Shown: positions 26,866 to 44,030, counted from the first letter of the stretch. The stretch: DNA of 64,000 nt from a bacterium (GCA_043779265.1 JAYWEM010000104.1:8-64007); one strand, 5' to 3'. Notes: generated from the sequence alone by a model not told the origin. Translations and numbers: made by a program.

Positions 26866-28221
26866 ATGAACACCGCATACCGTGCCCGGATGCCCCCACG
26901 CTCCGTCATCGTGATCGGGGCCGGCGCCGCCGGCCTGACCGCTGCCATCCGCGCAGGCGAGGCCGGTGCGCGCGTCACGCTGCTCAACGCGCACCCAAGA
27001 GTGGGCCTCAAGATCCTCATGAGCGGCGGCACCCGCTGCAACGTGACGCATCGAGAAGTCACCGAGCGCGACTACCACGGCGGCTCGCAGAAGGTGGTCG
27101 CCCGGGCACTGCGCGCGTTCACTCCGGCGCAAACGCTCGAGTGGTTCGAGCGCGACCTGGGTGTGGCGGTGAAGCTCGAGGACACGGGCAAGTACTTCCC
27201 CGAGAGCGATGACGCGCAGAGCGTGCTCGATGCCTTGCTCGCGGCGAGCGACCGGGCGGGTGTGGTGCTGCGCGCGGGTACGCAGGCCGTGCGGCTGGAG
27301 CGTGGCGACGAAGGCTGGCGTGTGGGCGTGCGCAAGGTGGTCGACAGCGCCGCATTCGGCGCGGGCGTGAAGGCGCACGGCGGCACCGAGTGGCCGCTGC
27401 CCGCTGCCGAACCCAGCGAGTGGCTCGAGTGCGATGCCGTGGTGATGGCCGCAGGGGGACTCAGCTTTCCTCGTACCGGCAGCGACGGCACCGGCTACGC
27501 GCTGCTGCGAGCCCTCGGCCACACCATCGTGCCGCCCGTGCCCGCGCTGACCCCGCTCGCTTCGGACGACGACCTCTGCCGCGGCGCGCAGGGCGTGACC
27601 ATGCACACGGAACTGGCGCTGTGGGCCGACGGCCGCATCGCGACGCGCGTGCAGGGTTCGCTGTTGATCGCGCACTTCGGCTACTCGGGCCCCGCCGCGC
27701 TCGATCTGTCGCGCCACTGGCATCGCGCCGAGGGGCACACGCGGCGCGTGACCGTATCGTTAGTGCCCGGCGCCACGTTCGAGTCGCTGGAGACCGATTG
27801 GCTGCTCGACGCCAAGCGTCACTCCGGCCGCGGCGTGCGCGGATTCCTCGGCGCGCGCATGCCCGAGCGGATCGCCGACATGATCACCGCCGAGTCGGGC
27901 CTGGGCGGCGTGACCATGGCGCAGACGCCGCGCGATCGCCGCAGCGCCATGCTGCGCGCCGTGCTCGAGCGCGACCTGCACGTGACCGGCACGCTCGGCT
28001 ACGAGAAGGCCGAAGTCACCGCCGGCGGCGTGCCGCTGGCCGAGGTGTCGGCCTCGACCTTGGAGTCGCGACTCGCGCCGGGCCTGTTCCTGTGCGGCGA
28101 GGTGCTGGATGTGGAGGGCAGGTTGGGCGGGTTCAACTTCCAGTGGGCGTGGTCGAGCGGGTGCGTGGCGGGGAGAGCTGCGGCGAATGGGGAGTCGGCC
28201 GAAGTCGAAGCGCGTCGCTGA
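26866..28221 (+). CDS. FAD-dependent oxidoreductase, HI0933/BaiN-like family (aminoacetone oxidase family).
   Basis: It has the VIVIGAGAAGLTAAIRAGEAG dinucleotide-binding motif. The MSGGTRCN and FNFQWAWSSG C-terminal signatures are typical of the family. Confidence 0.7.
   Translation: MNTAYRARMPPRSVIVIGAGAAGLTAAIRAGEAGARVTLLNAHPRVGLKILMSGGTRCNVTHREVTERDYHGGSQKVVARALRAFTPAQTLEWFERDLGVAVKLEDTGKYFPESDDAQSVLDALLAASDRAGVVLRAGTQAVRLERGDEGWRVGVRKVVDSAAFGAGVKAHGGTEWPLPAAEPSEWLECDAVVMAAGGLSFPRTGSDGTGYALLRALGHTIVPPVPALTPLASDDDLCRGAQGVTMHTELALWADGRIATRVQGSLLIAHFGYSGPAALDLSRHWHRAEGHTRRVTVSLVPGATFESLETDWLLDAKRHSGRGVRGFLGARMPERIADMITAESGLGGVTMAQTPRDRRSAMLRAVLERDLHVTGTLGYEKAEVTAGGVPLAEVSASTLESRLAPGLFLCGEVLDVEGRLGGFNFQWAWSSGCVAGRAAANGESAEVEARR
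28132..28161 (+). repeat. Left copy of a 30-bp perfect direct repeat (att-like), ttcaacttccagtgggcgtggtcgagcggg, inside the 3' end of the oxidoreductase gene.
   Basis: It is identical to 44001-44030. Homology continues with mismatches for about 25 more bp. Both copies encode FNFQWAWSSG-VAGRA. Confidence 0.7.
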
Positions 28222-28323
28222 GTTCCGCGCGCGACGCATTCGAGCGCTGCGTCGTCGCAGTTCTCGCCAGACCCCGCGAGCGAGCTAATTTGTGCTGGAT
28301 CTGTGCTAGTTCCGCCTCCAGCG

Positions 28324-29871
28324 CTAGGGCGTTGGCGGCTTGTACATGTCGGTGAATGGCTGGCCCCAGTTCTCGCCATAGACCCGCCACACCAGCGCGA
28401 GTTGCTCGGCCGGCGAGCTCGCGACCAGTCCCTCCACGTAGGCGATGAACACATCGATCGTCTTGCGGCTGAACACGCGCGTCGGCCACGTGAGCTCCTT
28501 GCGCACGCGTTGGTCGTTGACGATGTCGCTCATCTCGTTGTCGACGTACATGGCGTCGCAGTACGGCAGGAAGTGCATGATGACCGAGAGGTCGTTCGTC
28601 GTCCCGCGCCCCAACTTCCTCTTGCGGCCGCCACGCGCGAACTGCCAACCGAGCGCAGCGCAGACGAGCGATTCGATGTGTACGAAGGGGACACCGGAGT
28701 GGTCTGCCTTCCTGAAGTAGTCGAGTGCGCGCCCCATTGCCGCTCGGAGTTCAAGTCCCTCCTCGTGAAGCGCATAGGCGATCGCGTTCAGGAGCTCCAT
28801 GCAGAGCGGCTCATCCGAGTCCCCGGGGTTGGGGACGACACGACCAGCCATGAGGTCGGGCAGTCGCTCCATTTGGGCGGCGAACTCTTTGAGAATGCCG
28901 CGAGGGAACGCGCGCACCATATCCTCCACGAAGTCATCGAACGAACCGCCGTGTTTGGCCCACTCGTGGCACGCCGTTGTCAGGTTGGTCTCGATCCTGT
29001 CCCGACGGGCACGGACCAGCGCGACGGTCTCAGGGTCCGGGGCGTAAGCCATGCCGATCATCAGGTTGTCGTGCCACCCGTGTACGTCGTCCTCGATGAC
29101 ATCCTGCACTACGAGTTCGGACGGCTTGTAGGGGGCACCGCGGTGCCAGTTGCGCGCGTGCTCCACGACCTGCGCCACCTTTATGTCCCACACCTCGGGG
29201 AAACTAACCTTGCGGGAGAGCTGCTCGTACATCCGTTCGAGGGCCCTAAAGTCTTTCGTGACCATCGACTCCTTTGCGTGGATGCGGGAGTCGGGGCAGA
29301 TCACGACCTGGAGTTTCACGGCGCGGTCTAGTACCTCAAATACGCGCCTCGCGTACCCTGCTCGCTCGGCGCGCGCGGGGTCTGCAGGGTGCAGGGCCTT
29401 CATCATGTCGCTGACCAAGTGCTGGTCGAGGTAGATGACCGCCTTCGTCGGCCGCGGGAGGCGGTAGGTCACGGTGTTCCAGCACTCGCGCCTCCGGCAC
29501 CGACGGGTGTAGTTGTCGCCGTGGATCATGAGCACCCCGAACTCGTCCTGCCCGCACTTCGGGCACGTCTCGAACGGTGGCTGGATGAAGTCAACGGGGT
29601 CGAACCGACGAAACGGCGCGCGGATGCCGGCACGGCATCGCTGGCAATGGAACGCCACTTCGATCTTGCCGGACCTCGGGCCGGGCGCCTCCCCGGTGAC
29701 GAGCGGGCCGGAGCACATCGGGCAGATCAGCGGCTTCTTGGCGAGGAATGCGCCGCTCACGCGCTTGACCTGCTCGGGTGTCCACGGGATGGCGCCTTGT
29801 TCCTGTGTTGAGCGATCCGCCTCGGTCGCGCCCTCGCCCGTGGCCCCGAATCCCTGATCGTGCTCTGTCAT
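28324..29871 (-). CDS. Hypothetical protein with two N-terminal zinc-ribbon motifs and a domain of about 400 aa of unknown function.
   Basis: It has CPMCSG...CQRC and CPKCG...CRRREC motifs. It has no recognisable catalytic motif. It is the first gene inside the island. Confidence 0.55.
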   Translation of the reverse strand: MTEHDQGFGATGEGATEADRSTQEQGAIPWTPEQVKRVSGAFLAKKPLICPMCSGPLVTGEAPGPRSGKIEVAFHCQRCRAGIRAPFRRFDPVDFIQPPFETCPKCGQDEFGVLMIHGDNYTRRCRRRECWNTVTYRLPRPTKAVIYLDQHLVSDMMKALHPADPARAERAGYARRVFEVLDRAVKLQVVICPDSRIHAKESMVTKDFRALERMYEQLSRKVSFPEVWDIKVAQVVEHARNWHRGAPYKPSELVVQDVIEDDVHGWHDNLMIGMAYAPDPETVALVRARRDRIETNLTTACHEWAKHGGSFDDFVEDMVRAFPRGILKEFAAQMERLPDLMAGRVVPNPGDSDEPLCMELLNAIAYALHEEGLELRAAMGRALDYFRKADHSGVPFVHIESLVCAALGWQFARGGRKRKLGRGTTNDLSVIMHFLPYCDAMYVDNEMSDIVNDQRVRKELTWPTRVFSRKTIDVFIAYVEGLVASSPAEQLALVWRVYGENWGQPFTDMYKPPTP

Positions 29872-30211
29872 CGCTTGATTCCTTCGGCGGTACCGCGGCC
29901 GCTCCCTGTTCCGGGCTGCCCAACACGTCTGCGCGTTCGGGCGGTCCGCTGCGCTGAACATCAATGTGCGCATCGCGCGTGGGTTCTTCTATGAACTTGA
30001 ACTGAGTTGCGTCCGTCCCGAGAGCTTCAGTGACCAAGAAGTTCAGTGCCTCGACCGCATCGTGATGTGAGAGAACCGAGGCGCTCACGGCATCGACAGC
30101 CCAGCTCGACCGAGCGAGGCTGGCATCACATTCGACCCGTGCCGGACTTGGCTCCAGGTGTGGCTGGGTGGCTACTGCGGCCGCGCCGCCCTCTGAGCGC
30201 GCCGAGCTACC

Positions 30212-30718
30212 TCACTTGCCTTCCAGTTCAAGCGGCGGCATTGCGAACCGGTTTGCGGTCAGGATTGCCCGAATGCCCGGAATGTCGGCGAGCCCGATTG
30301 CGTTCTGCCGCACGGCCCGAGTGAGCAGGGAAGGCGTCGTGAGCAGGCGCTCGGCGCCCAGCCGCTCAAGCACCAAGCGTCGCACCGGGCCAACCTCGTC
30401 CACAGCCACGCTCCAGCGCCTCGTGAAGGCGACGGCCATCGCGGCCGATTCGCCGTCGCCGAATCGCTTGCGCAGTCTCGCGTACTCGGTCAGTTCCGCC
30501 AGCTCCGTGATCTCGAGCTCGGTGAGGTGCCCGGCTGCCAATGCCGTATCCAGGCGCGCTCGGTGTTCCTGGCGTGCCACCTCCGCGACCACGTGGTTCG
30601 GCACGTGCGCTTCGAAGCCGGTGGCCGCGAAGAGGTCGAGGCGGTCCAGGACCGCCAGGTTCAGCAGAACGCTGGTGTCGGCGACCAGCAGCGCCCGCGT
30701 TTCAGGAACGTGACTCAC
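30212..30718 (-). CDS. PIN-like domain nuclease (putative toxin).
   Basis: It starts MSHVPETRALLVADTSVLLNL with a GTG start. A conserved acidic residue follows the hydrophobic strand. It is 168 aa. Its start overlaps the upstream ImmA gene by 17 nt. Confidence 0.55.
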   Translation of the reverse strand: MSHVPETRALLVADTSVLLNLAVLDRLDLFAATGFEAHVPNHVVAEVARQEHRARLDTALAAGHLTELEITELAELTEYARLRKRFGDGESAAMAVAFTRRWSVAVDEVGPVRRLVLERLGAERLLTTPSLLTRAVRQNAIGLADIPGIRAILTANRFAMPPLELEGK

Positions 30719-31997
30719 GGGCCCGTCCCTTGGGCGAATGCGGAGTCTCCGCGCCGGCTGACTCGACGGCCGCGATAAGAGCCTCGGCCTCGTCGTCGCC
30801 GACAGCTACGAGCCGGCGAAGCTCGTCGAACTTGCGTCTGCTGACTAGCTCGCGGCGGAAGCATTCAAGTGCGAGGTGGATGAATCGATGGCGCGAGTCG
30901 CGCTTCCAACCGGTGGCCGCCCGAGCCTCGGGCGCGTCGGTCTGCGACGCCGCACCACCAAACATCGAGCGCATAACGGCGACCTGCTGCCTCATCTCGG
31001 CCAGCGAGCTCCGCTGTTCATTCGAGAGCAGTCCAAGATTCTGCAGACGGTAAAGAGTCGCGTCGTAGCTCGCGCCAAACGCTCCAGCCAAATGCACCAC
31101 GTCGTAGATCTGAATGGACTCGCCGCGGGTGCGCTTCTGGCCGTCCACTGCGTCGGCGCCGTCGAACGCGGCGGTCAGCATGCTTCGGGCGGAGTCACCT
31201 TTGCCGATTGCTCGGAGGGTGGCGCGCACGCCTCCCTCGGGCAGCAGGAAGCTCGCGGCGAACGAGTTGGCGCGCACTTCGAGCAGGTCGTCGCGGTTCG
31301 CCTGGCTGCTCACGAAGCCGCCGCGTCGCCGATCGGCCAAGAGGTGGCAGTACTCGTGTGCGTACGAGAAGCGCTGGCGCTCCGGCACCTCACCGTCTGC
31401 GACGATGGCCGAAAGGCCATGGCCACGATCGGTCAGGAAAAGCCCGGAGACGCCCTCGGGAAGGTCGAGCTCGAACGCCCTGACGCCCTGCGCCTCCAAC
31501 AACTCGACGAAGTCGCGGATCGGCCCGTCGCCGAGATTCAGCCGGCTGCGCTCGCGGTCGGCAAGGTCGTCGCCCTGATTGACCGCGTCCCAACGGTTGT
31601 TGGGGGCGGGCAAATCGTACGACACGGGGGAGATCTGGCCGCGGTCGATCTTCAGCAGGTCTTCGAGGCTGCTGAACTCGGAGCACAGCCGCGCACAGCC
31701 GCGCACAGCCGCCTGGCGCCCCTCGTCGTCCTGCAGTTGTGCGCTGGCGCGGAAGAGTACGGCGAGGGCACGGTCGGGCTCGTAGCCCTCGGGATCGAGG
31801 AGCGCGCTGATGTCCTCGCCAACGAGTTCGGCGATGCGCGACAGCTGGAGAGAGTTCGGGAAGCGGTCGCCGCCCTCAAGCTGGCTTACCGAGGCACGGC
31901 TCAGCCCCAGGGCCCTCGCGATGTCGTCCTGCTTCAACCCAGCTTGCTCACGCGCGACGCGCAGGCGTCGCCCAAGTTCGGCGGATGAGAGCGGCAT
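30702..31997 (-). CDS. XRE-family HTH fused to an ImmA/IrrE-family zinc metallopeptidase.
   Basis: The N-terminal HTH is LKQDDIARALGLSRASVSQLE. The HExxH motif is YAHEYCHLLAD. GGAGGA lies upstream of the ATG at 31995-31997. Confidence 0.7.
   Translation of the reverse strand: MPLSSAELGRRLRVAREQAGLKQDDIARALGLSRASVSQLEGGDRFPNSLQLSRIAELVGEDISALLDPEGYEPDRALAVLFRASAQLQDDEGRQAAVRGCARLCSEFSSLEDLLKIDRGQISPVSYDLPAPNNRWDAVNQGDDLADRERSRLNLGDGPIRDFVELLEAQGVRAFELDLPEGVSGLFLTDRGHGLSAIVADGEVPERQRFSYAHEYCHLLADRRRGGFVSSQANRDDLLEVRANSFAASFLLPEGGVRATLRAIGKGDSARSMLTAAFDGADAVDGQKRTRGESIQIYDVVHLAGAFGASYDATLYRLQNLGLLSNEQRSSLAEMRQQVAVMRSMFGGAASQTDAPEARAATGWKRDSRHRFIHLALECFRRELVSRRKFDELRRLVAVGDDEAEALIAAVESAGAETPHSPKGRARESRS
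31683..31712 (-). repeat. A 10-bp tandem repeat (gcacagccgc) in three perfect copies, inside the ImmA coding sequence.
   Basis: It was read directly from the sequence. It is in-frame as 30 bp and encodes AAVRGCARLC. A fourth degenerate copy lies just upstream. Confidence 0.7.
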
Positions 31998-32200: not shown

Positions 32201-32650
32201 ATGCCGAGACGAAACGCACATCTTGCCATCGCGGCGGTCTGTGGTGGCGTGGCCGCCTACTTCGTTGCCACGGAGGCCGGATCGTCTGATCCCTTCCCGG
32301 AGATCTTGGGCGGCATCCTAGGCGCGCTCGCCACCGCGATGGTGCCCGACGCCATCGACCCCGCCACGTCGCCGTCGCACCGCGGGAGCGGCCACAGCGT
32401 CGCCTTCGCGGGGCTCGTCTCCTTGGCGATTCAGCCCTGCCGCCGGTTTGCGGCCAGATGCCGGAATGACGCCGAGACATTCCGCAGCCTCGCTGCACAG
32501 GCGGAGGCCCGGCCAGGCGAACAGGCCGACCATCAGTTCAGCGAGCTGGCTTCGAGGTTTGCGGCCGGCGTCGCCGTCGGCCTGCCGGTTGGGCTGTTGT
32601 CGCACCTTGGCGCCGACGCAACCACGCCGCGCGGCCTGACGCTCGTCTAA
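32201..32650 (+). CDS. DUF457-like membrane-bound metal-dependent hydrolase (YdjM-like).
   Basis: It starts MPRRNAHLAIAAVCGG. It has hydrophobic segments and an SHRGSGHS motif. An RBS, GGGAGGGGGGAG, lies upstream. Confidence 0.45.
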   Translation: MPRRNAHLAIAAVCGGVAAYFVATEAGSSDPFPEILGGILGALATAMVPDAIDPATSPSHRGSGHSVAFAGLVSLAIQPCRRFAARCRNDAETFRSLAAQAEARPGEQADHQFSELASRFAAGVAVGLPVGLLSHLGADATTPRGLTLV

Positions 32651-33420: not shown

Positions 33421-33424
33421 GGCC

Positions 33425-36400
33425 TCAGCTCATCCCGTCAGACTTGGCGAGCTCGGCCACTGCCGGCTTCAGGAACGGCGGGTCTGCAGCGTCTGCGTCG
33501 AAGCCCAGACCTGCATAGGCAGGATTCCACGACTCGGCGAGCAGGGACTGCTCCACGCGCATCCGACCGCCGATAGACACGCTCCAGCCCGGCGCCAACA
33601 GCTTGTTCCCGCGGAGGTGCGCGACCATGCGTCGCGCGCACTCCGCGGCGTAGGCTTCGTCGGCCGCGCTGGCATGCGCCCGCAGGATCGTGAACAGCCC
33701 GTACTCGCCCGGTTCCGTGAGGTTCAGGCGCTCGGGCTCCTGCTTAGTCGCAGCGGCCGCGGCCGCGATCGCCTCGAGCTCGCGAAGTCGCAGAGCAATG
33801 GCCTCATCACCCGCGTCCCGGCGCTCCTTGAGTGCCTGCAGCCGCTCGCCCAGCTGGTGGTAGATGAAGCTCGGATCATCTTCGGACAACTCAACGGTGA
33901 GGAGCGCCTCCAGGGCAGCGGCCTTGTCCGCGGGCGTGGGGAGTTCGTCGAGCTTGCCCACGTAGTCCTTGTCGATCTTGAAGACCGGCAGGGCTTCGGC
34001 GATGTCGAGGAAGGCCGTGTTCTCCTGGATCAGTTGGCGGGTCTTCGCGGACAACTCGCCGTATGTGTCCTTGCTCCCTCGTTGCCGGCGGCGGTGAGCG
34101 ACGTAGATGCCGCACAGCCAGTTGTACTGGAAACGGTGAGGGTAGAGGCAGGGGTCGGGGGCCACGGCTTCCCAGAGCCGTTCCAGGCTGCGGAAGTTGT
34201 GCTCGAAACTCTTGGCGGCCTGTGCATCGCGCAGGCGGCGCAGCGCAGAGAGCAGGCACTCCCGCGTGTCCTCGATCTCGATGCCGTCGAACAGCGCCAT
34301 GCACCGTGCCACCTCGCCCGGCACCGTCGCTCGAAGCGCGTCCCAGTCGATCAGGGATTCCTCGCGCACGCTCTCGTCGAAGTTGAGCGCCTTCTCAAGG
34401 CTGGCAAAGACCCCGAAGTAGTCCACGACGAGGCCAGTCCGCTTGTTCATGGAGGGCAGGGGGCGGTTCGTCCGCGCGATCGCCTGGAGCAGGTTGTGGT
34501 CGCGGAGCGGCTTGTCCAGGTACAGGACCTGTTCGACGGGCGCGTCGAAACCGGTCAGCAGTCGGTCGCAGACGATCAGGATCTTGAGCGGCGGGCGCCA
34601 TCGGCTGCGGTCTTCGCCAAAGCGTTCTCGATTCCAGGTCTCCCACTCGGCCGGCGTGAGCTTGAAGTAGTCGATCAACTCGTCTTGCTTAGCCTTGGCG
34701 TACTCGAAGGCCTCAACCGCGGGTTCGCTGTTCTGTGCCCCGGAGATGATGACGTCGGACCACTCAGCGGGGAGGCCGCGCCCGCGAAGCTTGAGGTCGA
34801 GTGCCGTCTTGTAGAGAGCGCATGCCTTGCGGTCGACGGCGACCAGCTGCGCCTTGAAGCCGTTCGGATCTGGATGCGCTAGAAAGTGGTTCAGCATCCG
34901 CCCCAGCACGATTTCCACGCGCTCGGGGTGGCGGGCCAGTTCCTTCCACTGCGCGCGCTGACGCTGGACGAAGTCCTTGGCTTCCTCGTCCTCGAGTTCC
35001 ATCTCCTCGCACATCTGTTCGAACCCAGTGCTGAGGGCTGCCTCGTCGACCTTGAACGGTACGGCGTCGCGGATGTAGTGAACCTCGAGGGTGGCGCCAT
35101 CCCGGATCGCGCGCCGAATGCCGTAGTAGCTGAGATAGCGCTCCTGGACGCCGTCCCTCAGGGGGCCGAAGTCGCGGTGCGTGTTCTGCATCGTCCGGTC
35201 AATCGGAGTGCCGGTGAAGCCGAAGCGAAACGCGTTCGCGAGCTTGACGCGCATCGTCATCGCGTAGCTCTCAGTGCCGTCGCCCTTCTGGGAGCGGTGG
35301 CACTCGTCGACCATGCTGATGATGTTGTCGCGCGCCAGGGGGGCGAGGTCGCCCATTCCCTGGAACGACTGCACGGTTGTCACGAGAGTCCCTCGCCAAT
35401 CGGCGCGGAGCTTCCGCTTCAGGTCGTCGACTCCAAGCGCCTTCTCGACGTTCGGGTAGTCGCAGGCGTCGAAGTCGTCGGAGAGCTGGGTCTTGAGATC
35501 GCGCCGATCGACCACGATGAGGACCGTGGGGTTATCGAGGGCCGGGTGGCGGCGCAGCTTCTGGCCGGCGAAGATCATGGTGAGCGACTTGCCGGAGCCC
35601 TGCGTGTGCCAGATCAATCCGGTGCGCTCTTGGGAGTCGGCCGGCTTGCCGGCGAGGGTCACGGTGCGATCCACCAGCTCGTTCACCGCTTCGAACTGCT
35701 GGTAGCGCGCGATCTTCTTCGCCGTCTTGCCCTTCTTGGTTTCGAAGACGACGAAGTGCTGCAGGAAGTCCAGCAGGTGCGCCGGCTTCAATCGCAGCAA
35801 GCCGCGAACCGGTGCCTCCAGCGGGTCGTCCGGGTCGGCGGCCTCGGGTTCATTCCAGTAGCCATGGCGATCCGGGTACAGGCTCAGCCAGCGGCCCCAC
35901 GAGTCGAGGTGGCGCTCAATGTCGTCCTTGCTGGCGTCGTGGAAGAGCACGGTGCCGAAGCGGAACTCCTCCTCGTCGGCTGCGACGCAGAACACATTCG
36001 AGGCCAGGATGAGCGGAGCTTGGCGCTGGTAGCGGTGCAGCTGGTGCACAGCCTCGCGCCAGTCCTTGCGGCTCGTGTTGTAGCTCTTGTACTCGGCCAC
36101 AACGAGCGGGATGCCATTCACGAGGAGGACAGTGTCCTCGCGGCACTGCCTCACGCCCTGAACGCGGTACTGGTTCGTTGCGGTGAAGTCGTTCCGGCCC
36201 GGCTTGCTCGGGTCGAACTCGATGAAGAACACCGTCGTCGCGTCCGCGCCCGGCTCCAGTACGACCTTGGCGCCGTCCCGAAGCAGGTCAAGTGTCTGGC
36301 GGTTCGCCGTGAGCTTGTCAGGGTGGGACATCGTCGTGCGAAGCGCTGCGACGGCGAGCCTTGCCTGCACCTCGTCCTTCACCTGCGGATTGATGCGAAG

Positions 36401-36574: not shown

Positions 36575-37896
36575 GGCAAATTCTCCATGATTACACTTGG
36601 CACACGGACTACGCCGGTGAGGAGGTCGTGCGCGAGGGCACGTTTGAGGTGCTGCAGTGCGCGGCGGACTTCGGACAATGCATCGAGTTGTGCTTCCACT
36701 CCGGCAATACGTGAGACAAGCGCGTCTTGCTCGCTATCGGGAGGCACAGGAATGACGGTCTGATTTACGTCGCGACCATTGATCTTGAGCGTTCCGTTTG
36801 AGGTTTTCGCACGGCGAAGGACCTGGTTGTGCACCAGCGCATGATTCCATGCAAGCACAGCGAAGGCCGCGCTCACCCTTGGACTTCCTTCGGCGCGGAA
36901 TGAGACTCGCATCGTAATGTCGGGGTAGATGCAATCTTCCGGGAATTGGTCGACCATTCCCGCCTTTCCGACCAGGTCGGGATTGGCGTTTCCTCTCACC
37001 ACAAGAACGTCACCGCGGCGAATGCGGTAGCGCTCAATAACTTTCTCGGCCACGCGTACGTACTTGAGGTGCTCGCTTCGATCGAGGGCAACCCGGCCTT
37101 CACGAATTGCAGCAAGGCTGAATGTCGGTGTGCCTGGTGGTTGGGTTGACGACTCGGGGGAAACGCCGTTCTTTGGGTCCTCCGCAAGTAGGTGTTGCGT
37201 CTCAACCAGCGCCCAGCCCGCGGGCAGGGCCTTGCTCGGCCGATTGGCGTACGCGGTTTCGCCAAGTGCCTCGTAGAAGAATCCCTGCAGAATAGCGTTC
37301 TTCAGGGCCTTCGCCGCTTCAATAGCGGCGTCATTTCGGTCGAGCGCTTTGTCGGCGGCATTGAGGATGCCGGCAACAGCGTGCTGCTCGTCAGGGGACG
37401 CAGGGATGGCACACCACACCGTACGAATGTCTCGCTTGCTGACCTCCTCAAATGTGGTCCCTGCGCCGAAGCGTTTGATAATGGGAGTGAGCACGTCGAG
37501 GAGATAGTACAGATAGTCGGCGTCTACCGAGTGAGGAACAAGACTTGCGAAGCCCTGATTCGTGGCCATTGGGATTGCCGCGACGGCCTTTGCCCCGATG
37601 GTTGCCCGGCTCGTGTAGAGAATCGAGCCTGCCGGCAGCAGCTCTGCCGACGACGAGCTGAGACCAGCTTCCGTAATGCACTCGGCAGTGTTGGAAATCC
37701 GCTTTGCTCCGTTCGCAGTCAGGTCGGTCGGCGTGGCCCAAGGGATCGTTCCGCGGTCCCAGAATCGGTGCTCGTCCCGGCTTGGAGTTCCGCCCCCAAC
37801 AACTCGTGCGAGCTCACCCAGAGTGTGCGCGTCCCAGCCGGAGGGAAGCCCGAAGCGCCGCAGGAAGTCGTGTCGAGCGCCAGCGCTAACCCGCAT
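36571..37896 (-). CDS. hsdS: Type I restriction-modification specificity subunit.
   Basis: It is 441 aa with two target-recognition domains separated by conserved coiled-coil regions. It overlaps both hsdM and hsdR. Confidence 0.8.
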   Translation of the reverse strand: MRVSAGARHDFLRRFGLPSGWDAHTLGELARVVGGGTPSRDEHRFWDRGTIPWATPTDLTANGAKRISNTAECITEAGLSSSSAELLPAGSILYTSRATIGAKAVAAIPMATNQGFASLVPHSVDADYLYYLLDVLTPIIKRFGAGTTFEEVSKRDIRTVWCAIPASPDEQHAVAGILNAADKALDRNDAAIEAAKALKNAILQGFFYEALGETAYANRPSKALPAGWALVETQHLLAEDPKNGVSPESSTQPPGTPTFSLAAIREGRVALDRSEHLKYVRVAEKVIERYRIRRGDVLVVRGNANPDLVGKAGMVDQFPEDCIYPDITMRVSFRAEGSPRVSAAFAVLAWNHALVHNQVLRRAKTSNGTLKINGRDVNQTVIPVPPDSEQDALVSRIAGVEAQLDALSEVRRALQHLKRALAHDLLTGVVRVPSVIMENLP

Positions 37897-39922
37897 AGCC
37901 GATATCCTTCAGTAGGTCATTGAGCGCTGTCGTGGCCGCATGTGCCGTTATCTCCGCATCCCGCAGCGCAATCAGCGCGTCCTTGACCTCCACCCGCGGC
38001 TCAGGCTCAAACGTGTCCACGTAGCGCGGGATGTTGAGGTTGAACTCGTTCTCCTCGATCTCGTCGAGGCCCACGACGCGGGCGTGCTTGAACAGTTCGT
38101 CGGGATTGGCGTAGAGCGCCCGCAGCTCGTCACCTACCACCGCCACGTCCTTGCGATCGTCATCAGCACGGCGCCGCGCTTGGGCGATGCGCTCCTCGCG
38201 CTGGGCCACCTTCGCGGCTAGCTTCTCGCGGTGCTTTTCCAGCTTCGCGGTCGACGCAGCCATCTTCGCCTTCTCCTGTTTCGTCCCGGCCACCGACTCC
38301 TTCTGGCGCGCCTGGACCAGCTCGGCGTCCAGCGTCGCGAGCATGTTCGACTGCGGCTGATACTCCGCTTCGATCCGCCCAGTCTCCTCCGCCTCACGCA
38401 CGTCAATCTGCCGGCGGATGCGACCGCCGTGCTCGTCCACGAGAGCTGACAGCTTGGCCACGTCTCCGTATGCATGGATGTGAACGAGAATGCGCATTAC
38501 ATCCTGCGGGCGGAGCTCATTCTGCGCCGATAGCTCTCGGAAGTGGCGTGCCGCGTAGATGAGGAGCACCTTGTCGCGGCGATCCGCCGGGCGCTGCTTG
38601 CTCAAGATTAGCAAGCAGGCGGGCACGCCCGCGCCGTAGAACACGTTGAGCGGCAGCGAGATCACGGCGTCGATCAGGTGCGACTCGAGCAGCGCCTTGC
38701 GGATAAGGTGCTCGTCGTCCGCCTTGCGTCGCTTGACCTTCGGTTTGCTGTCGTCGTCAAGCTCCTCGGTTTCCTCCTCAACTTCCGGCTGCCCGCGGAA
38801 GAGCACGCCCTGCGGGCACACGATGCCGGCGCGCCCGGCATCGGTGAGCGAGGCGAGGATGTGCAGGATGAACGCGTAGTCGCCGTAGCCGGCCGGTGGC
38901 GCTTGGAAGCCGGTGCCACGGCCGAAACGGCCGAAGGGGTCTTTGAAGCCCTCCTTGCCGAAGGTCTCCTTCTTAAGCTTGTCCTTCTTCTTCTTGTCGT
39001 CGGTCTGCTGCTCCGGCTTCAACCACCAGAACTCGTCCGAGAAGGGGAAGTTCGCGAGCACCAAGGAGAACTTACGGACCTTGCCGTCGTCGAGGAACTG
39101 CGGGTCCGTGATTGTGCTGGCGCCCGCCTTGATCTCAGCTTCCAGGCCATGAAGGACCGAGTTGATCTTTCCGATGGCCGCGTTGCCCCAGTTCATTTCC
39201 TGGGCGGAGTAGCGGGCGCTGGTGGCGTGGTGGCCGTGCTCCCGCAGGTAGTCGGCCGCGTGCACGAGCATGCCACCGGAGCCCGCGGTGGGGTCGTAGA
39301 CGGTGTCGCCAGGCCGCGGCTCCAGGATGCGCACGAGCGTGTCGACGACCTCGGGTGGTGTGAAGAACTCGCCAGCCTTGGCGCCGGCGTCATCCGCGAA
39401 CTTCTTGATCAGGTACTCGTACGCCCGGCCCAGCACGTCCGAGGGAACGCTGCTGTTCGAGAGGTCGTGTTCGTCGAAGTGCTGGATCAGCGCGTGGACG
39501 ACTTCATTGGGAATGAGCGGCTTGCCCGAGCCGTCAGGAGCGGGCTGGTTCCAATCGACCGTGAAGACGCCCCGAAGCTCCTCGTTCGCGTCCGCTACCG
39601 CGCGCATCGCCTTCGTCAGCGTCTCGCCGATGTTCGTCGAGGCGGCCTTCACATCGCCCCAGCGGGATCCGTCGGGGATCTGGAAGCGGTGCTCGCCGCG
39701 CTTCCGGAATACGGCCTTCTCCTTGTCGCTGAACTTGCGGCCCTGCTGGCGCTCGAGCTCGGCAATGGCGTCGTCGGCTTCGCATTCCCACTGGTCGCAC
39801 AGGCGCTTGTAGAACATCAGAGACAGGATGTAGTTCTTGTAGTCCTGTCCCGCGGTCTTGCCCCGCAGGATGTTTGCCGCACCCCAGAGATGGGCTTCAA
39901 GCTGCTGGAGAGTGAGCTTCAT
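37886..39922 (-). CDS. hsdM: Type I R-M N6-adenine DNA methyltransferase subunit with an extended coiled-coil C-terminus.
   Basis: It has the N-terminal HsdM_N (LWGAANILRG), the SAM-binding motif I (TVYDPTAGSGGML) and NPPF in a form diverged to NFPF. At 678 aa it is about 150 aa longer than is typical. Confidence 0.8.
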   Translation of the reverse strand: MKLTLQQLEAHLWGAANILRGKTAGQDYKNYILSLMFYKRLCDQWECEADDAIAELERQQGRKFSDKEKAVFRKRGEHRFQIPDGSRWGDVKAASTNIGETLTKAMRAVADANEELRGVFTVDWNQPAPDGSGKPLIPNEVVHALIQHFDEHDLSNSSVPSDVLGRAYEYLIKKFADDAGAKAGEFFTPPEVVDTLVRILEPRPGDTVYDPTAGSGGMLVHAADYLREHGHHATSARYSAQEMNWGNAAIGKINSVLHGLEAEIKAGASTITDPQFLDDGKVRKFSLVLANFPFSDEFWWLKPEQQTDDKKKKDKLKKETFGKEGFKDPFGRFGRGTGFQAPPAGYGDYAFILHILASLTDAGRAGIVCPQGVLFRGQPEVEEETEELDDDSKPKVKRRKADDEHLIRKALLESHLIDAVISLPLNVFYGAGVPACLLILSKQRPADRRDKVLLIYAARHFRELSAQNELRPQDVMRILVHIHAYGDVAKLSALVDEHGGRIRRQIDVREAEETGRIEAEYQPQSNMLATLDAELVQARQKESVAGTKQEKAKMAASTAKLEKHREKLAAKVAQREERIAQARRRADDDRKDVAVVGDELRALYANPDELFKHARVVGLDEIEENEFNLNIPRYVDTFEPEPRVEVKDALIALRDAEITAHAATTALNDLLKDIGYAG

Positions 39923-40314
39923 GGCGGTCCGTGCCTTCCGTGGGCAGCATGTGAAGCGCCTGCCCCGGTGGACATCGCGCCAGCGTCGTACGGCCGGCCA
40001 AGCGAGCCAACGGGCCTAACAAGCGCCAGAGAACCCGCTGACCCTATCGGGATAGGGCTCCCTGCTCAAGTAATCCGGCCGCCGGGTTGACGCGCGATTC
40101 GGAAACGCTTCCATTCACCGGGCGTCGGCCCGCGTCCAGCAGGCCCGTGGACTTCTGAGCGCCCAAGATGCCCAAGCGCCGAAGGTGGACCCGAATGACG
40201 AAGACCCTAAGGTGAGCCGATCGCCTCTTCTTCGCCCGACGGATCGCTCAGCCGAGAAACATCTGGCAGGAGGATCTGGTCGACGCGAGCAGATTTGCCT
40301 CGCTTTGCAGCGAT

Positions 40315-41859
40315 ATGGGAATGCGCTGCAGCTCCGATGACGTGCTTCAAGTCTGGGCTGCTGGACTCTTGCGAGCTGATCTCGTCCACTGCGCGGCCCC
40401 TCTCCGTCGGCATGGCCTTGTCCGTGTCCAGGTCTTGCCGGATCGAACCGCGCTGTACGCGGATCTGCGACGCGCCCGCTCTCGGCCGCGCGGGTGGCTC
40501 AACGCCCTGAAGCGCGGCCTGGGAGTTGGCGGCTCTGCCCCGGAGCCACTCTTCCACCCATTTCGTTGTTTGGTGCTCGCCAATCTATGGCGGCAGTTCG
40601 AGGCTGGCTTCCATCCGCTTCAGTTCCTGATTAACGCGCGCGGTGCTCGCAGGGTCTTGGAACTGCACCGAGGGTCGATACAGGCGATCACGTCAAAGGT
40701 GGAGTTCCTCGAGGGAATCGAGCGGCTATCCGGCATCGTCGACATGGCGGTGGCCATCGAGCCCTTCGCGCTCCCAGCAATTCGGGGCTCTGTGAGGCTG
40801 TCAGTCGGCAGTCTTCAAACCCACGAGCGGCAGGTTCAGACCTATTGGCGCGCGGCAAGGCGTCGGCTTAGCTCCGTGGGACTGGACTCGATGGAGGCTA
40901 TGCGAAGGGAGTTGTGCATTCAGTCAGAGCTTGTCGACCGAAACCGGGCGCTCCAGACCGTGCTTCGACTAATGTCCGACTCACATCGACAACGCCTCCG
41001 AGGTGGCCTCGTCGGCGCAATGTTGTTGCGGTCTATGGCTGAGGTGCTCCGCCGCGGCGCTGAGAGCATCTTCGCTGCCCCGCTGCCAGAGGAGGATGAG
41101 ATCGGATTCGGGCGGTACTTCCCTGGGACGAAGGAGAGGCTCTACGGATCCGAGCGCCTTCTCGATGGTGACAGGGCAGTAGCGGAGCAGTTCCTTCGCG
41201 CGCATGGCCTGGACTACGGCGTGCGAGTGCGTTGGTACGTGGAAGGCGATACTGAGTTTGGGGCGTTGTCGAGCGCATTGGAGCGCGTTCATGCAATCGA
41301 CCTCGTGAATCTGCGAGGAGCCGTCGTCGAGAAGGGGGGCAAGTCGGTGGCCTTCCGCGACAGCCTCCGCGCGGACAAACGCACCCGCACGTTCAGCATG
41401 GTGTCCGTCGACGCCGACCGGCAGGACGTCGTGCGTTTGGTGAATCAGGCCGATCGGAACGGCGAGATTTGCGGCAATGTCTTCTTCCAGCAGCCTGATT
41501 TCGAGTTTGCCAACTTCACGCTGGATGAGTTGCAGGAGGCTCTGTTGATTATGGCGCGGAAGACCGGCGTCCCGCCGGCCGGATGCAGGAAGATTCGCCC
41601 ACTGACGCGAGACACGAAGTCTGCTGGCGAGCTTTGGCGCGCGCTACACAAAAAGCTGGGCGCACCGGCAGGCTTCAGCAAGGGCGCGGAGTGGGGAAGG
41701 GTATTGATTGAGCTGGCCTACGAGCGACCGAGTGCCCCTCCGCCGATTGTTTTATCCGACGGGCGGCGACCGATGCTCGAAGCGATCAACATCGCGCTGA
41801 GGAGTGTGATCTCGGACTACGAGCTTACGCGCGCGGCTGCCCTCGCGGTGCGTCGATGA
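40315..41859 (+). CDS. Hypothetical protein of 514 aa. Its C-terminal half has a TOPRIM/DUF4435-like motif (WYVEGDTEF). It is a candidate partner of the downstream SIR2-like gene.
   Basis: A long ORF with no Walker A motif. The start codon is uncertain. It is followed after 65 nt by the SIR2_2 gene on the same strand. Confidence 0.45.
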   Translation: MGMRCSSDDVLQVWAAGLLRADLVHCAAPLRRHGLVRVQVLPDRTALYADLRRARSRPRGWLNALKRGLGVGGSAPEPLFHPFRCLVLANLWRQFEAGFHPLQFLINARGARRVLELHRGSIQAITSKVEFLEGIERLSGIVDMAVAIEPFALPAIRGSVRLSVGSLQTHERQVQTYWRAARRRLSSVGLDSMEAMRRELCIQSELVDRNRALQTVLRLMSDSHRQRLRGGLVGAMLLRSMAEVLRRGAESIFAAPLPEEDEIGFGRYFPGTKERLYGSERLLDGDRAVAEQFLRAHGLDYGVRVRWYVEGDTEFGALSSALERVHAIDLVNLRGAVVEKGGKSVAFRDSLRADKRTRTFSMVSVDADRQDVVRLVNQADRNGEICGNVFFQQPDFEFANFTLDELQEALLIMARKTGVPPAGCRKIRPLTRDTKSAGELWRALHKKLGAPAGFSKGAEWGRVLIELAYERPSAPPPIVLSDGRRPMLEAINIALRSVISDYELTRAAALAVRR

Positions 41860-41924: not shown

Positions 41925-43109
41925 ATGAGCGCAATCTTCATTCTGGGCTCGGGCGCGTCGAAGGCTGCCAACTCTCCGTCGGTGTGGGAGATCACGCGAG
42001 CCGTTCGTGAAGGTGTCGCAGTACACCTCCATACTGATGGAAGGCACTACCTAGCAAATCCGCCGCGCCCTTCTCTCGAGCATGCCGAGGTGGAGGTACA
42101 GCGAGCCGTCGCGGTGGTGCGCTGCGTCCTTCCGCTCATCCGTTTGCAGATGCGAAGCACCCCAAACTACGAAGAGGTCTACTTCCTGTTGCGGCAAGTC
42201 GCGGACCACCTGCTCTGGGACTTTGAGAATCCTGCGCTGCAGCCTTTGATCTACGAGATGGCTCGTCGCTGGGAAGAGTCCGCATGGCAGAAGAATCTCG
42301 CGGGCGACCCCGTCAGTCTCAGGGAAGCCCTCCTTCAGGCGTGTGACTACATCCATGATGTGACGTGGCGGCTGCTCGAACCCGTGTGCGCGTTCGGGCA
42401 CATGCTGAACTGGGCCTCGGCTGTCGGCGAACTCGGGGGTGATTGCGACGCTGTCGTAACCCTGAACCATGATGAACTCGCGCGGCGCGCTCTCGCGGAG
42501 TGCAGCATCGACTTCGAGGACGGCTTCGAGCCGCCGGGCGCCATCAGGCCATGGCGACCTGCCCGCCTCGACCGAAGTGGTCCGGTGAAGCTGATCCACC
42601 TTCATGGGGCTCTGAGCTGGTTCTGGTATGTGAGGGACGGGGATAGCGGGAGTCGGCAGTATCTGCTCCGGGTCGCGGGGGGCGACATCGATCACGTGCT
42701 CCATCCCTCGGGCGAGGCGATGATTCTCGCGGCCAACAGGCCTTGCCTGTCGATCGGAACTCACAACAAGGTGACCGCCTACTTCAGGCAGCCGTTCAAC
42801 GAACTCTACGGCCAGATGACTCGGCTCCTCCGGGAGGAGGGTGCGGTGACGCGGATCGTCCTTGCGGGGTACGGAGGCGCCGACAAGGGAGTCAACCTCC
42901 AGGTTTCCGACTGGATGCAGACCGGCGACGCTCGCGAAATCGTCCTCGTGCATCCAAACCCGACCAGCTGGCTCGCAAGTGCTCGGCCGCACCTGGCCAC
43001 CCAGTGGCCGATCTGGACAGCGGCAGGCCGGATCAAGACCATTTCCAAACCGTTCGAAGCCGTGACCCGCGAGGAGTGGATTGCGGCCGCTCGCGGCGCA
43101 AGTGCGTAG
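41925..43109 (+). CDS. SIR2_2-family protein (Thoeris ThsA-like NAD-binding or NADase domain).
   Basis: It starts MSAIFILGSGASKAA with the Rossmann GAGxS motif. VVTLNHDEL corresponds to the TTNYD motif. KLIHLHGALSW is the LHGS motif. Confidence 0.65.
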   Translation: MSAIFILGSGASKAANSPSVWEITRAVREGVAVHLHTDGRHYLANPPRPSLEHAEVEVQRAVAVVRCVLPLIRLQMRSTPNYEEVYFLLRQVADHLLWDFENPALQPLIYEMARRWEESAWQKNLAGDPVSLREALLQACDYIHDVTWRLLEPVCAFGHMLNWASAVGELGGDCDAVVTLNHDELARRALAECSIDFEDGFEPPGAIRPWRPARLDRSGPVKLIHLHGALSWFWYVRDGDSGSRQYLLRVAGGDIDHVLHPSGEAMILAANRPCLSIGTHNKVTAYFRQPFNELYGQMTRLLREEGAVTRIVLAGYGGADKGVNLQVSDWMQTGDAREIVLVHPNPTSWLASARPHLATQWPIWTAAGRIKTISKPFEAVTREEWIAAARGASA

Positions 43110-43166
43110 AAGGGGAGGCTTGTGGGCGTTTAGCTATGCGCTCGAGGCTGTCGTCGAGGAGGGCCG

Positions 43167-43766
43167 ATGGACCGGACAGTCATCAACCTGACGTCACTGT
43201 TATTGGGCGGCGCAGGGATCTTCGCGGTTCTTACGGAGTACAGCGTGAGAGAGCTCCGAAAGACCTACTGGGGGGAGAACCCCTTCGCGATCAAGGCGGA
43301 GGTGATCAAGGGGCTGACGACCTCCTTGTTCGTCGCGCTGGCAGTTGTGGCAACGCTTCTTCAGGCGATGGCCGAAATCGTTGGCGATCGACTCCCGGAG
43401 CGCAGGCACGGGCTGCCCGCATATGTGCTGTTCTTCCTTGTCGGTGTGGCCCTGGACGTCGGGATCGTTCGCGGGCTTGCCTGGCTCGGTCGGAAACTCG
43501 CACGACGGCGATGGTGGCCAGAGGTGATCAAGTCCCAGAGCGCTGCGTTCGTCGCAGCACGCGCGATCGTGCTCAACGATGGCTGGCGCGATGACCAGCT
43601 CGAGCTCAAAGACAAGCTCGATGACCAGCAGAAATACCGGGAGGCCAACTGGGAAGCCGCCGAGCGCTCAATCGCGCAGATCGAACGCCTATTGGAGCTC
43701 CCGCCACGCGGAGAACACGCCAAGGCCCGCCTGGCCCGACTGGCAGTGTACTTCGCCAGCGCTTGA
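43167..43766 (+). CDS. Small two-TM membrane protein with a C-terminal coiled coil. Possible membrane effector of the SIR2 module.
   Basis: It has two hydrophobic helices (LLLGGAGIFAVL and AYVLFFLVGVALDVGIV). GGAGGG lies upstream. Confidence 0.5.
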   Translation: MDRTVINLTSLLLGGAGIFAVLTEYSVRELRKTYWGENPFAIKAEVIKGLTTSLFVALAVVATLLQAMAEIVGDRLPERRHGLPAYVLFFLVGVALDVGIVRGLAWLGRKLARRRWWPEVIKSQSAAFVAARAIVLNDGWRDDQLELKDKLDDQQKYREANWEAAERSIAQIERLLELPPRGEHAKARLARLAVYFASA

Positions 43767-44000
43767 GGGCAGCGTGCCCGGTGCAGCGCCAGTGGCAGCG
43801 CCTACTCGCCTAGCCAGCACCCCGCTTCGTCACCGTTATCGGAGCGCATCGCCGAACCTCGCTGTGTCAGAACTGTGCTACAACGCTCGAACCACCACCG
43901 AGACTATCGGTCCTCATCGGTTCGCTAGTCGTCGCGTTCAGGCGCATTTGACGCGGGGTTCGGCGGTGTTGAGCCCTCTCCTGAATTGCCGGGTCTCGCA

Positions 44001-44030
44001 TTCAACTTCCAGTGGGCGTGGTCGAGCGGG
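44001..44030 (+). repeat. Right copy of the 30-bp direct repeat; the displaced original 3' end of the oxidoreductase gene.
   Basis: It is identical to 28132-28161. It continues in frame as FNFQWAWSSGTVAGRAVALK followed by a stop. Confidence 0.7.

What the first reader, a model, noticed from the sequence alone, without database searches (positions are those of the whole stretch)
28132..44030. A 15.9 kb defence island inserted into the 3' end of a FAD-oxidoreductase gene, bounded by 30-bp perfect direct repeats
The sequence ttcaacttccagtgggcgtggtcgagcggg occurs at 28132-28161, inside the 3' end of the oxidoreductase CDS. It occurs again at 44001-44030, where it continues in frame into a short alternative C-terminus (..FNFQWAWSSGTVAGRAVALK) followed by a stop. 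That is the signature of an element that integrated into the 3' end of a protein-coding gene and brought its own replacement 3' end, leaving the displaced original end at the far junction. The enclosed DNA carries only accessory and defence genes: a Zn-ribbon protein, PIN, XRE-ImmA, DUF457, M48, type I R-M, and a SIR2 module. No integrase or recombinase is visible, so the element may be immobilised or mobilised in trans.
Basis: seen in the sequence. Interest (0 to 1): 0.8.

Follow-up and report, generated by a model that had tools for sequence, protein, structure and literature searches.

The report
Integrase-less island in yhiN gene end
A 15.9 kb block of defence genes sits in the tail of a conserved flavoprotein gene as the decayed, integrase-less remnant of a mobile element family that targets this same spot in many uncultured bacteria; it is a textbook kind of island at an integration site I found no earlier report of.

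Summary
A perfect 30-bp direct repeat lies at 28132-28161 and 44001-44030, with none expected by chance, and it extends to 53 nt at 87% identity.

The left copy is in the 3' end of an HI0933/YhiN-type flavoprotein gene. The right copy is an orphan gene tail with the family-typical ending SSGTVAGR.

In a metagenome scan, 21 of 120 contigs carrying this core also carry orphan tails, always starting at the same base (TTCAAC). Five related loci (L147, L177, L082, L210, L211) have a tyrosine integrase convergent with the gene, directly after the core.

The window keeps both arms of the attachment site. The left arm (28165-28319) is 86.5% identical to that of integrase-bearing L147. A TGTG-N7-TGTGC motif sits at +159 and -138 from the cores, as in relatives. 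Homology to L147 stops at 28319, where the integrase gene should begin.

The island is therefore a decayed element that kept attL and attR, like a cis-mobilizable element (CIME). It carries a type I R-M system, PIN nucleases, an XRE-M78 regulator and a weakly supported SIR2-like module.

No empty site from the same species was found. Defence-type genes continue beyond the right repeat to about 49 kb. Known kind, new member; moderate interest.

The parts
26866..28221 (+). HI0933/YhiN-type FAD flavoprotein gene. It is chimeric: native body up to the core, then an element-supplied tail.
   Evidence: Pfam HI0933_like E 2.6e-72. 6669 homologues. Its ending SSGCVAGRAAANGESAEVEARR differs from the SSGTVAGR seen in nearly all of the 120 listed homologues.
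28132..28161 (+). attL core, the left copy of the 30-bp repeat. It codes FNFQWAWSSG.
28162..28319 (+). Element-side arm (P'). It holds the replacement gene tail (28162-28221) and 98 nt of non-coding DNA. In intact relatives the integrase gene starts where this arm ends.
   Evidence: 86.5% identity over 156 nt to L147, where the sequence runs on into the integrase 3' end. The cargo homology of L086 also breaks at 28319.
28291..28306 (+). TGTG-N7-TGTGC tandem motif, a putative arm-type integrase-binding site, 159 nt from the core start.
   Evidence: The motif occurs only twice in the window. These positions are invariant in 5 aligned attL regions. It lies at +159 to +161 in the four integrase-bearing loci and in none of 93 other native gene ends.
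28324..29871 (-). 515-aa protein of an unannotated family: Zn-ribbon plus PIN-like nuclease fold. Cargo, not a recombinase.
30212..30718 (-). PIN-domain protein (DUF3368).
   Evidence: Precomputed Pfam PF11848. PADLOC PDC-S70, E 2.4e-10.
30702..31997 (-). Fused XRE helix-turn-helix and M78 (ImmA/IrrE) peptidase regulator.
   Evidence: Pfam HTH_31 and Peptidase_M78. PADLOC RmrA E 6.5e-30, plus capP and capH.
32201..32650 (+). YdjM (DUF457) membrane hydrolase-like protein.
   Evidence: Pfam PF04307
32647..33420 (-). YgjP-like metallopeptidase-fold protein, a common companion of type I R-M systems.
   Evidence: Pfam PF01863, E 1.5e-47
33425..39922 (-). Complete type I restriction-modification operon: hsdM 37886-39922, hsdS 36571-37896, hsdR 33425-36574.
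   Evidence: Pfam N6_Mtase and HsdM_N; Methylase_S; HSDR_N, SWI2_SNF2 and T1R_D3-like
40195..41859 (+). About 550-aa protein of an unannotated family, first gene of the SIR2-like trio. It carries a TGA at codon 7 (40213-40215).
   Evidence: 539 representatives, which start about 40 residues before the window's first ATG at 40315. Homologue P0361 reads MTRTLKRADRVF where the window reads MTKTLR*ADRLF.
41925..43109 (+). SIR2-like protein (weak match).
   Evidence: Pfam SIR2_2 E 2e-4, 21.9 bits, below the 24.5 cut-off. PADLOC SIR2 models E 7.5e-7. No PDB sequence hit.
43167..43766 (+). 199-aa protein of unknown function.
   Evidence: No hit in Pfam, PADLOC, NCBIfam, PHROGs or PDB. Conserved at 87% aa identity in L179.
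43840..44000 (+). Element-side arm (P) of attR, with ATCGGTC repeats.
   Evidence: 88-93% identical in L179 and L153. Alignment of 8 attR arms.
43863..43878 (+). Second TGTG-N7-TGTGC motif, 138 nt before the core.
   Evidence: The same motif lies at exactly -138 in 14 of 24 orphan junctions from other contigs.
44001..44030 (+). attR core, the right copy of the 30-bp repeat.
44031..44063 (+). Displaced native tail of the flavoprotein gene (TVAGRAVALK plus stop).
   Evidence: Homology of L179 to the window ends at 44052, inside this tail.

Best explanation
The segment 28132-44030 is the decayed remnant of an integrative element. The element belongs to a family whose tyrosine integrase recombines an element site (attP) with the conserved FNFQWAWSSG-coding stretch at the 3' end of the HI0933/YhiN flavoprotein gene (attB).

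Inferred history:
- An ancestor of the type seen in L210 and L211 integrated by strand exchange within the 30-bp core. That type carries an integrase, an HTH_17 excisionase-like gene (seen in L210 only), a primase-helicase and cargo.
- Its own copy of the gene tail restored the reading frame at the left junction. The native tail was pushed 15.9 kb downstream.
- Later the integrase and its neighbours, which lie directly beside the left arm in intact relatives, were lost or replaced by cargo. The breakpoint is at 28319.

What remains is both cores, both arms with their TGTG-N7-TGTGC motifs, and cargo only. The cargo is a type I R-M system, two PIN-type nucleases, an XRE-M78 regulator, YdjM, YgjP and a SIR2-like trio whose first gene has an early stop codon.

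The island cannot move by itself. Because its sites look intact, a cognate integrase supplied in trans could in principle excise it, as described for cis-mobilizable elements.

Shown here: the repeat, the recurrent junction, the integrase in relatives, the arm homology, the absence of a recombinase, and the change of flank in L179. Inferred: the order of events, the function of the motifs, and mobilisation in trans.
For: - Repeat: perfect 30-bp repeat, 53 nt at 87%.
- Recurrence: in a scan of JGI metagenomes, 120 contigs carry the core. 105 copies end a full-length gene. 24 are orphan tails on 21 contigs, all starting at TTCAAC.
- Unrelated cargo at the same junction: complete insertions of 0.8-10.5 kb include L119 (SOD, SCO1, PCuAC, TonB receptor) and L167 (one methyltransferase). 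Tandem arrays occur in L098, L197 and L196.
- Integrase in relatives: PF00589 integrases lie convergent with the gene, directly after the core, in L147, L177 and L082. The same holds on Mb-scale contigs L210 and L211. There the integrase is followed by a Prim-Pol or D5_N primase-helicase, preceded by HTH_17 in L210 only, and then by defence-type cargo.
- Closest relative: L082 has a flavoprotein 88% identical and shares upstream synteny with the window.
- Left arm: window 28165-28319 is 86.5% identical to the L147 arm. Homology ends where the L147 integrase begins.
- Motif spacing: the motif lies at +159 in the window and at +159 to +161 in the four integrase loci, but in 0 of 93 other native ends. 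It lies at -138 in the window and in 14 of 24 orphan junctions.
- Second host background: L179 carries the island's right end (SIR2-like gene, 199-aa gene, arm, core) at 92% nt identity next to a different flank.
- No recombinase: no Pfam recombinase in any sizeable ORF, and no tblastn trace of the integrase catalytic domain.
- The definition of a CIME matches (PMC5704250).
Against: - No empty site from the same species was found. The three other contigs from this organism all carry the island. The nearest unoccupied site, L083, is only 81% identical at nucleotide level.
- Neither excision nor integrase binding to the motifs was tested.
- Low GC and defence-type genes continue to about 49 kb without a further att copy. 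The repeat-bounded segment may therefore be only part of a larger variable region.
- Several insertions at this site in other contigs (L167, L178, L156) lack the conserved arm, so not every insertion there need come from this element family.
- The organism is unidentified.
Confidence: 0.8

Rival explanations
1. Composite island formed by tandem accretion. On this view 28.1-44.0 kb is the youngest element and 44.06-49.2 kb is an older, further decayed insertion at the same site whose outer att copy has eroded away. The older part would hold the AAA_14/DUF4143 ATPase, an XRE-M78 regulator, DUF6933-PRiA4_ORF3 and a small ORF. This extends the best explanation rather than replacing it.
For: GC stays at 0.63-0.66 until about 49 kb, against 0.69-0.72 in flanking core genes. 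The genes there match PADLOC candidate defence families PDC-S01 (E 3.6e-88) and PDC-S63 and Pfam accessory families. Tandem arrays of tail copies exist at this site in L098, L197 and L196. L179, with the same right end, has a different downstream flank.
Against: No third copy of the core or tail was found, even with relaxed protein and DNA searches. There is no integrase remnant and no TGTG-N7-TGTGC motif in 44-50 kb. The region could simply be a strain-variable native neighbourhood.
Confidence: 0.3
2. The island is still autonomous and moves with an unrecognised recombinase. The candidate is the 515-aa Zn-ribbon protein next to the left junction, or one of the other unannotated proteins.
For: The 515-aa gene lies 160 nt from the left core, where integrases normally sit. 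It has no family annotation.
Against: Its homologues occur away from any such junction. L084 has one between a type III-like R-M system and YaaC. L085 has one elsewhere. L086 has a 95% identical copy next to unrelated DNA. Its predicted fold matches VapC/PIN nucleases and no recombinase. Relatives at the same site use an ordinary tyrosine integrase. The 550-aa and 199-aa proteins have large families or none, but no recombinase signature.
Confidence: 0.03
3. A Tn7-like transposon of the Tn6230 type, which is reported to use yhiN as its attachment site, inserted here.
For: A review table lists Tn6230 as targeting a yhiN att site, with molecular details unknown (PMC11406308).
Against: No TnsA/B/C or TniQ-like proteins appear in any ORF scanned. 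The junctions are 30-53-bp direct repeats of the gene tail, not a 5-bp target duplication with terminal inverted repeats. That expectation for Tn7-like elements is from established knowledge, not tested here. Relatives carry a tyrosine integrase at the junction.
Confidence: 0.01
4. There was no mobile element. The orphan tail arose by local duplication or illegitimate recombination, and the genes between are a native variable region.
For: No recombinase is present in the window. No empty site from the same species is available.
Against: The same breakpoint base recurs with unrelated cargo in 21 independent contigs. Both arms are conserved, with fixed motif spacing. The integrase sits at the junction in relatives. 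The same right end appears in a different flank in L179.
Confidence: 0.03

Closest known systems
Cis-mobilizable elements (CIMEs), e.g. those related to ICESt1/ICESt3
   Same: [quoted passage not shown] It derives from an integrase-bearing element with the same site specificity. The site shows tandem arrays of elements. From my own recall, the Streptococcus thermophilus examples sit in the 3' end of the fda gene.
   Different: The phylum and target gene differ. The intact relatives seen here carry an integrase, a primase-helicase and (in L210) HTH_17, with no conjugation genes in the 10 kb visible, so the parent is not shown to be an ICE. Cis-mobilisation was not tested.
Integrase families dedicated to one protein-coding gene, e.g. 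the dusA-specific integrases
   Same: A clade of tyrosine integrases tied to one conserved position in one housekeeping-type gene across many genomes, carrying varied cargo (PMC4482086).
   Different: Those elements target the 5' end of dusA. Here the target is the 3' end of an HI0933/YhiN flavoprotein gene, and the window's copy has no integrase.
Lambda-type (heterobivalent) tyrosine integrases that insert into tRNA gene 3' ends
   Same: A core identical to the target's 3' end, which restores the gene. Arms with repeated motifs at fixed distances. Integrase next to one junction. A 54% identical integrase in IMG/VR contig L209 sits beside a tRNA gene.
   Different: The target is a protein-coding gene. 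Arm-site function is inferred from conservation only.
Tn6230 (Tn7-like), reported to use a yhiN attachment site
   Same: The same gene family serves as a landing site for mobile DNA (PMC11406308).
   Different: The mechanism is different: transposase with a target selector, against tyrosine recombination. None of its genes or end structures are present.

Membership tests
Cis-mobilizable element (CIME) | Flanked by attL and attR direct repeats generated by site-specific integration | tested here: met
   30-bp perfect repeat, 53 nt at 87%. The same junction recurs in 21 other contigs.
Cis-mobilizable element (CIME) | Lacks integrase, excisionase and transfer genes | tested here: met
   All 11 ORFs between the repeats were scanned with Pfam, and most also with PADLOC, NCBIfam or PHROGs. 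No recombinase, HTH_17, relaxase or type IV secretion hit. tblastn with family integrases finds no catalytic domain.
Cis-mobilizable element (CIME) | Derived from, or related to, an autonomous element with the same att specificity | tested here: met
   The left arm is 86.5% identical to that of integrase-bearing L147. Integrases lie at the same junction in L082, L177, L210 and L211.
Cis-mobilizable element (CIME) | Can be excised or transferred when a related element integrates alongside or supplies integrase | not testable with these tools
   This needs an excision or mating assay, or read-level evidence of attP and attB junctions.
Autonomous tyrosine-integrase genomic island | Encodes its own integrase next to an att site | tested here: not met
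   Homology to L147 stops at 28319, exactly where the L147 integrase 3' end begins.
Autonomous tyrosine-integrase genomic island | Arm regions with repeated motifs at conserved distance from the core | tested here: met
   TGTG-N7-TGTGC lies at +159 and -138, with the same spacing in relatives. Binding was not tested.
Tn7-like element (Tn6230 type) at yhiN | TnsA/B/C-type transposition genes and a TniQ/TnsD target selector | tested here: not met
   No such Pfam families in any ORF of the window scanned.
Type I restriction-modification system | Adjacent hsdM, hsdS and hsdR genes with full domain sets | tested here: met
   N6_Mtase E 7.8e-74 and HsdM_N. Methylase_S E 5.3e-21. HSDR_N, SWI2_SNF2 and T1R_D3-like. 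Activity was not tested.
SIR2-based defence system | A protein passing a SIR2 family threshold, with partners known from described systems | tested here: inconclusive
   SIR2_2 scores 21.9 bits, below the 24.5 cut-off. PADLOC SIR2 models reach only E 7.5e-7 to 7e-3. The partners have no PADLOC hit, and the first gene has a stop at codon 7.
Integron cassette array | IntI integrase with attI, and cassettes ending in attC hairpins | not tested
   The junctions are copies of a gene tail, not attC-like palindromes by eye. No IntI was seen. No formal attC search was run.

The most novel reading that the evidence does not exclude
The 3' end of the HI0933/YhiN gene acts as a cassette-collecting platform in this lineage of uncultured high-GC bacteria. 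Integrase-less units from 0.8 kb to 16 kb keep complete arms with fixed motif spacing and pile up in arrays separated by copies of the gene tail. They would be captured, shuffled and spread by integrases supplied in trans from a minority of intact elements. That would be a parasitic or 'satellite' layer on a tyrosine-integrase family, loosely like an integron without a resident integrase.
Probability: 0.15. Interest if true: 0.55.

Novelty: new member of a known kind. Interest (0 to 1): 0.35.

Why it matters
It explains an island with no recombinase without invoking a new mechanism. It also identifies the missing enzyme family from related loci.

It defines an integration hotspot for which my literature searches found no earlier report, other than a Tn7-like element listed as using yhiN. 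The definition comprises a core, two arms, motif spacing and a cognate integrase clade, in poorly known soil and sediment bacteria.

This is useful in three ways:
- delimiting islands in metagenome-assembled genomes;
- finding defence cargo, including two large unannotated protein families;
- providing a compact integrase and att pair that could be tested as a genetic tool.

It does not change how such elements are thought to work.

Tried and rejected
- Same-species empty site. Exact-protein look-ups returned only contigs that also carry the island. blastn of all 211 fetched loci found nothing homologous to 44.06-56 kb outside the organism's own contigs.
- A free or viral form of the element. 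A scan of IMG/VR for the core found nothing. The only viral-collection relative of the integrase sits at a tRNA gene.
- A third att copy bounding the 44-49 kb region: none found.
- A degraded integrase inside the island. There is no tblastn signal. The apparent 1.1 kb gap at 39.9-41.0 kb left by the public gene call is the 5' part of a 550-aa gene.
- The 515-aa protein as a recombinase: rejected on genomic context and on its PIN-like fold.
- A known RNA in the arms. No Rfam match, apart from a sub-threshold THF riboswitch hit that I treat as chance.
- Organism name. The cluster look-up gave no names. The FlgD_ig tails, 70% GC and best named hits (Eisenbacteria and Udaeobacter MAGs, 61-64%) allow only a guess.
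- Native downstream gene. FG-GAP repeat similarity between the L083 downstream gene and window 49.6-50.0 kb is repeat-level only and was not used.

Full report
**Observation.** The 30-mer TTCAACTTCCAGTGGGCGTGGTCGAGCGGG occurs exactly twice in the window, at 28132-28161 and 44001-44030, both on the + strand. No match appeared in 100 shuffles, even with three mismatches allowed. The similarity continues ungapped to 53 nt at 87%. Relaxed DNA and protein searches found no third copy.

The left copy lies in the last 90 nt of ORF 26866-28221. This ORF is an HI0933/YhiN-type FAD flavoprotein (PF03486, E 2.6e-72). The right copy is preceded by unrelated sequence and reads FNFQWAWSSGTVAGRAVALK followed by a stop.

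**Which tail is native.** Nearly all of the 120 best homologues continue SSG-T-VAGR after the core. The resident gene has SSG-C-VAGR and an unusually long ending (..AANGESAEVEARR). The orphan at 44 kb has the orthodox form. The reconstructed native protein would be 442 aa, close to the 433-442 aa of most relatives.

**Content.** A GC3-based gene map, the public gene calls and family scans give eleven genes between the repeats:
- a 515-aa unannotated protein;
- a PIN/DUF3368 protein;
- a fused XRE-M78 regulator;
- YdjM;
- a YgjP-like protein;
- a complete hsdR-hsdS-hsdM operon;
- a trio made of an unannotated protein of about 550 aa, a weak SIR2-like protein (21.9 bits, below the 24.5 cut-off) and a 199-aa orphan.

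The first gene of the trio has 539 representative homologues. These begin about 40 residues before the window's first ATG. The window reads MTKTLR-TGA-ADRLF where a 74% identical homologue reads MTRTLKRADRVF. The gene therefore carries a nonsense codon at position 7.

**No recombinase in the window.** No sizeable ORF matches a recombinase or transposase family.

**The same junction elsewhere.** I scanned the JGI metagenome collection with a slightly degenerate core. I classified every copy by whether the gene body precedes it:
- 105 copies end a full-length gene.
- 24 copies, on 21 contigs, are orphan tails. All start at the same base, TTCAAC.

Six contigs hold both a native end and an orphan, so the whole insertion is visible. 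These insertions measure 0.78, 1.29, 1.36 (seen twice), 2.0 and 10.5 kb. Their cargo is unrelated to that of the window. L119 carries superoxide dismutase, SCO1, PCuAC, a DJ-1 protein and a TonB receptor. L167 carries a single methyltransferase. L098, L197 and L196 show two orphan tails in tandem. The window's repeat has the longest perfect run of all these cases (30 nt against 2-17), which suggests a comparatively recent event.

**The missing enzyme.** I screened all ORFs of these contigs with two integrase fragments that happened to be in hand. This picked out L147 and L177. In both, the flavoprotein gene is followed by the core, a tail, about 100 nt of spacer, and a convergent tyrosine integrase (PF00589, E about 1e-16).

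L082 comes from the closest relative available. Its flavoprotein is 88% identical and it shares the upstream CHAT-TPR gene with the window. Its truncated downstream ORF is 80% identical to the L147 integrase.

Homologues of this integrase on 3.6 Mb and 1.3 Mb contigs (L210, L211) show the same convergent arrangement. The integrase is followed by a Prim-Pol/AAA_25 or D5_N primase-helicase, with an HTH_17 excisionase-like gene before it in L210 only. Then comes SNF2/RmuC or DUF499/TPR cargo. A 54% identical integrase in a viral-collection contig lies beside a tRNA gene, the usual habit of this enzyme class.

**The window keeps the sites but not the enzyme.** Window 28165-28319 is 86.5% identical to the element side of L147. 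The alignment diverges at 28319. From there L147 runs into the integrase 3' end, and the window runs into the stop codon of the 515-aa gene. tblastn with both integrases finds only this non-catalytic stretch.

A 95% identical copy of the PIN and 515-aa module in contig L086 also loses homology at 28319 and continues into unrelated DNA. The cargo next to the arm is therefore a separately exchangeable block.

**Arm motifs.** The motif TGTG-N7-TGTGC occurs only twice in 64 kb. One copy starts 159 nt after the start of the left core and the other 138 nt before the right core. Among 97 native gene ends with at least 400 nt downstream, a slightly relaxed form of the motif (last base C or T) appears only in the four integrase-bearing loci, at +159 to +161. 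Among 24 orphan junctions it lies at exactly -138 in 14. Alignments of five left arms and eight right arms show these positions invariant amid otherwise diverged sequence. I read them as arm-type integrase-binding sites. That reading is an inference from conservation. Rfam finds no known RNA in either arm.

**Evidence of movement.** L179, from a JGI metagenome, matches window 42117-44052 at 92% nt identity. The match covers the SIR2-like gene, the 199-aa gene, the right arm, the core and 22 nt of tail. Its remaining 440 nt are unrelated to the window. L153 shares the SIR2-like gene and the arm but has a different gene between them. The same right end therefore sits in at least two host backgrounds.

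**Limits.**
- No empty site from the same species was found. The other contigs from this organism carry the island, including L088, which starts inside its right end.
- The nearest apparently unoccupied site, L083, is 81% identical at nucleotide level. It has no integrase, arm motif or orphan within 10 kb.
- Low GC and PADLOC-type candidate defence genes continue to about 49 kb with no further att copy. These genes are AAA_14/DUF4143 (PDC-S01), XRE-M78 and DUF6933-PRiA4_ORF3 (PDC-S63). This region may be an older decayed insertion or simply a variable neighbourhood.
- Some insertions at this site lack the conserved arm.

[quoted passage not shown] The same source describes tandem accretion at the same site (PMC5704250). 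Integrase clades dedicated to one protein-coding gene are known, for example for dusA (PMC4482086). The only mention of yhiN as a landing site that I found concerns the Tn7-like Tn6230 (PMC11406308). Nothing in the window resembles that element. Searches combining HI0933 or yhiN with integrase or genomic island listed no report of this integration site among their top-ranked results.

**Verdict.** The island is a new member of a known kind. The added value is the definition of the site, the arms and the cognate integrase family. Interest is moderate.

Noticed in passing
window 40195-40215: The first gene of the SIR2-like trio has TGA at codon 7, where a 74% identical homologue (P0361) has Arg. 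The next ATG is at 40315. This may be a pseudogene, a reinitiation site or a sequencing error. The public gene call starts only at 41035.
   Followed up: partly
[not shown]
   Followed up: partly
window 44064-49200: A second accessory cluster lies outside the repeats: AAA_14/DUF4143 ATPase (PADLOC PDC-S01), XRE-M78 regulator, DUF6933-PRiA4_ORF3 (PDC-S63) and a small ORF. GC is 0.63-0.66, and there is no bounding repeat or integrase.
   Followed up: partly
window 25618-26730 (-): A Fic/SoFic-type gene with low GC (0.63-0.65) lies just upstream of the flavoprotein gene. The closest relative, L082, has a 550-aa TPR gene in that position.
   Followed up: no
window 7538-26865; L210 11209-15701; L211 11286-19013: The order Aminotran_3, NUDIX-metallo-beta-lactamase-BLACT_WH, HI0933 is contiguous in L210. 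L211 has about 3.5 kb more between the beta-lactamase and HI0933 genes. In the window about 12 kb lie between them (EamA, Pkinase-TPR, a 1070-aa FlgD_ig protein, a sigma-70-like gene, CHAT-TPR, Fic).
   Followed up: no
L210 10001-11344; L147 692-2248: Several integrase ORFs of this family have no stop before the junction. They run about 100 codons through the arm, the tail and the core, antisense to the flavoprotein gene (called lengths 440-483 aa against 353-358 aa). This is probably read-through typical of high-GC DNA. If real, integration would change the integrase C-terminus.
   Followed up: no
L161, L174, L178 (just after the tail copies): A shared palindrome AGTCTCATAAGTGAGAC follows the gene tail in three unrelated contigs, next to small HTH-type ORFs. 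It is possibly the operator of a toxin-antitoxin cassette that persists at this site.
   Followed up: no
L119 and L183: These two contigs share the same left flank and right arm but hold 10.5 kb and 2.0 kb between the repeats. This pair appears to document cargo loss or gain within one element lineage.
   Followed up: partly
L119 7161-7236 and 11518-11593: A 76-nt direct repeat at 89% identity lies inside the 10.5 kb insertion, at the 3' ends of two ORFs. It was not examined further.
   Followed up: no
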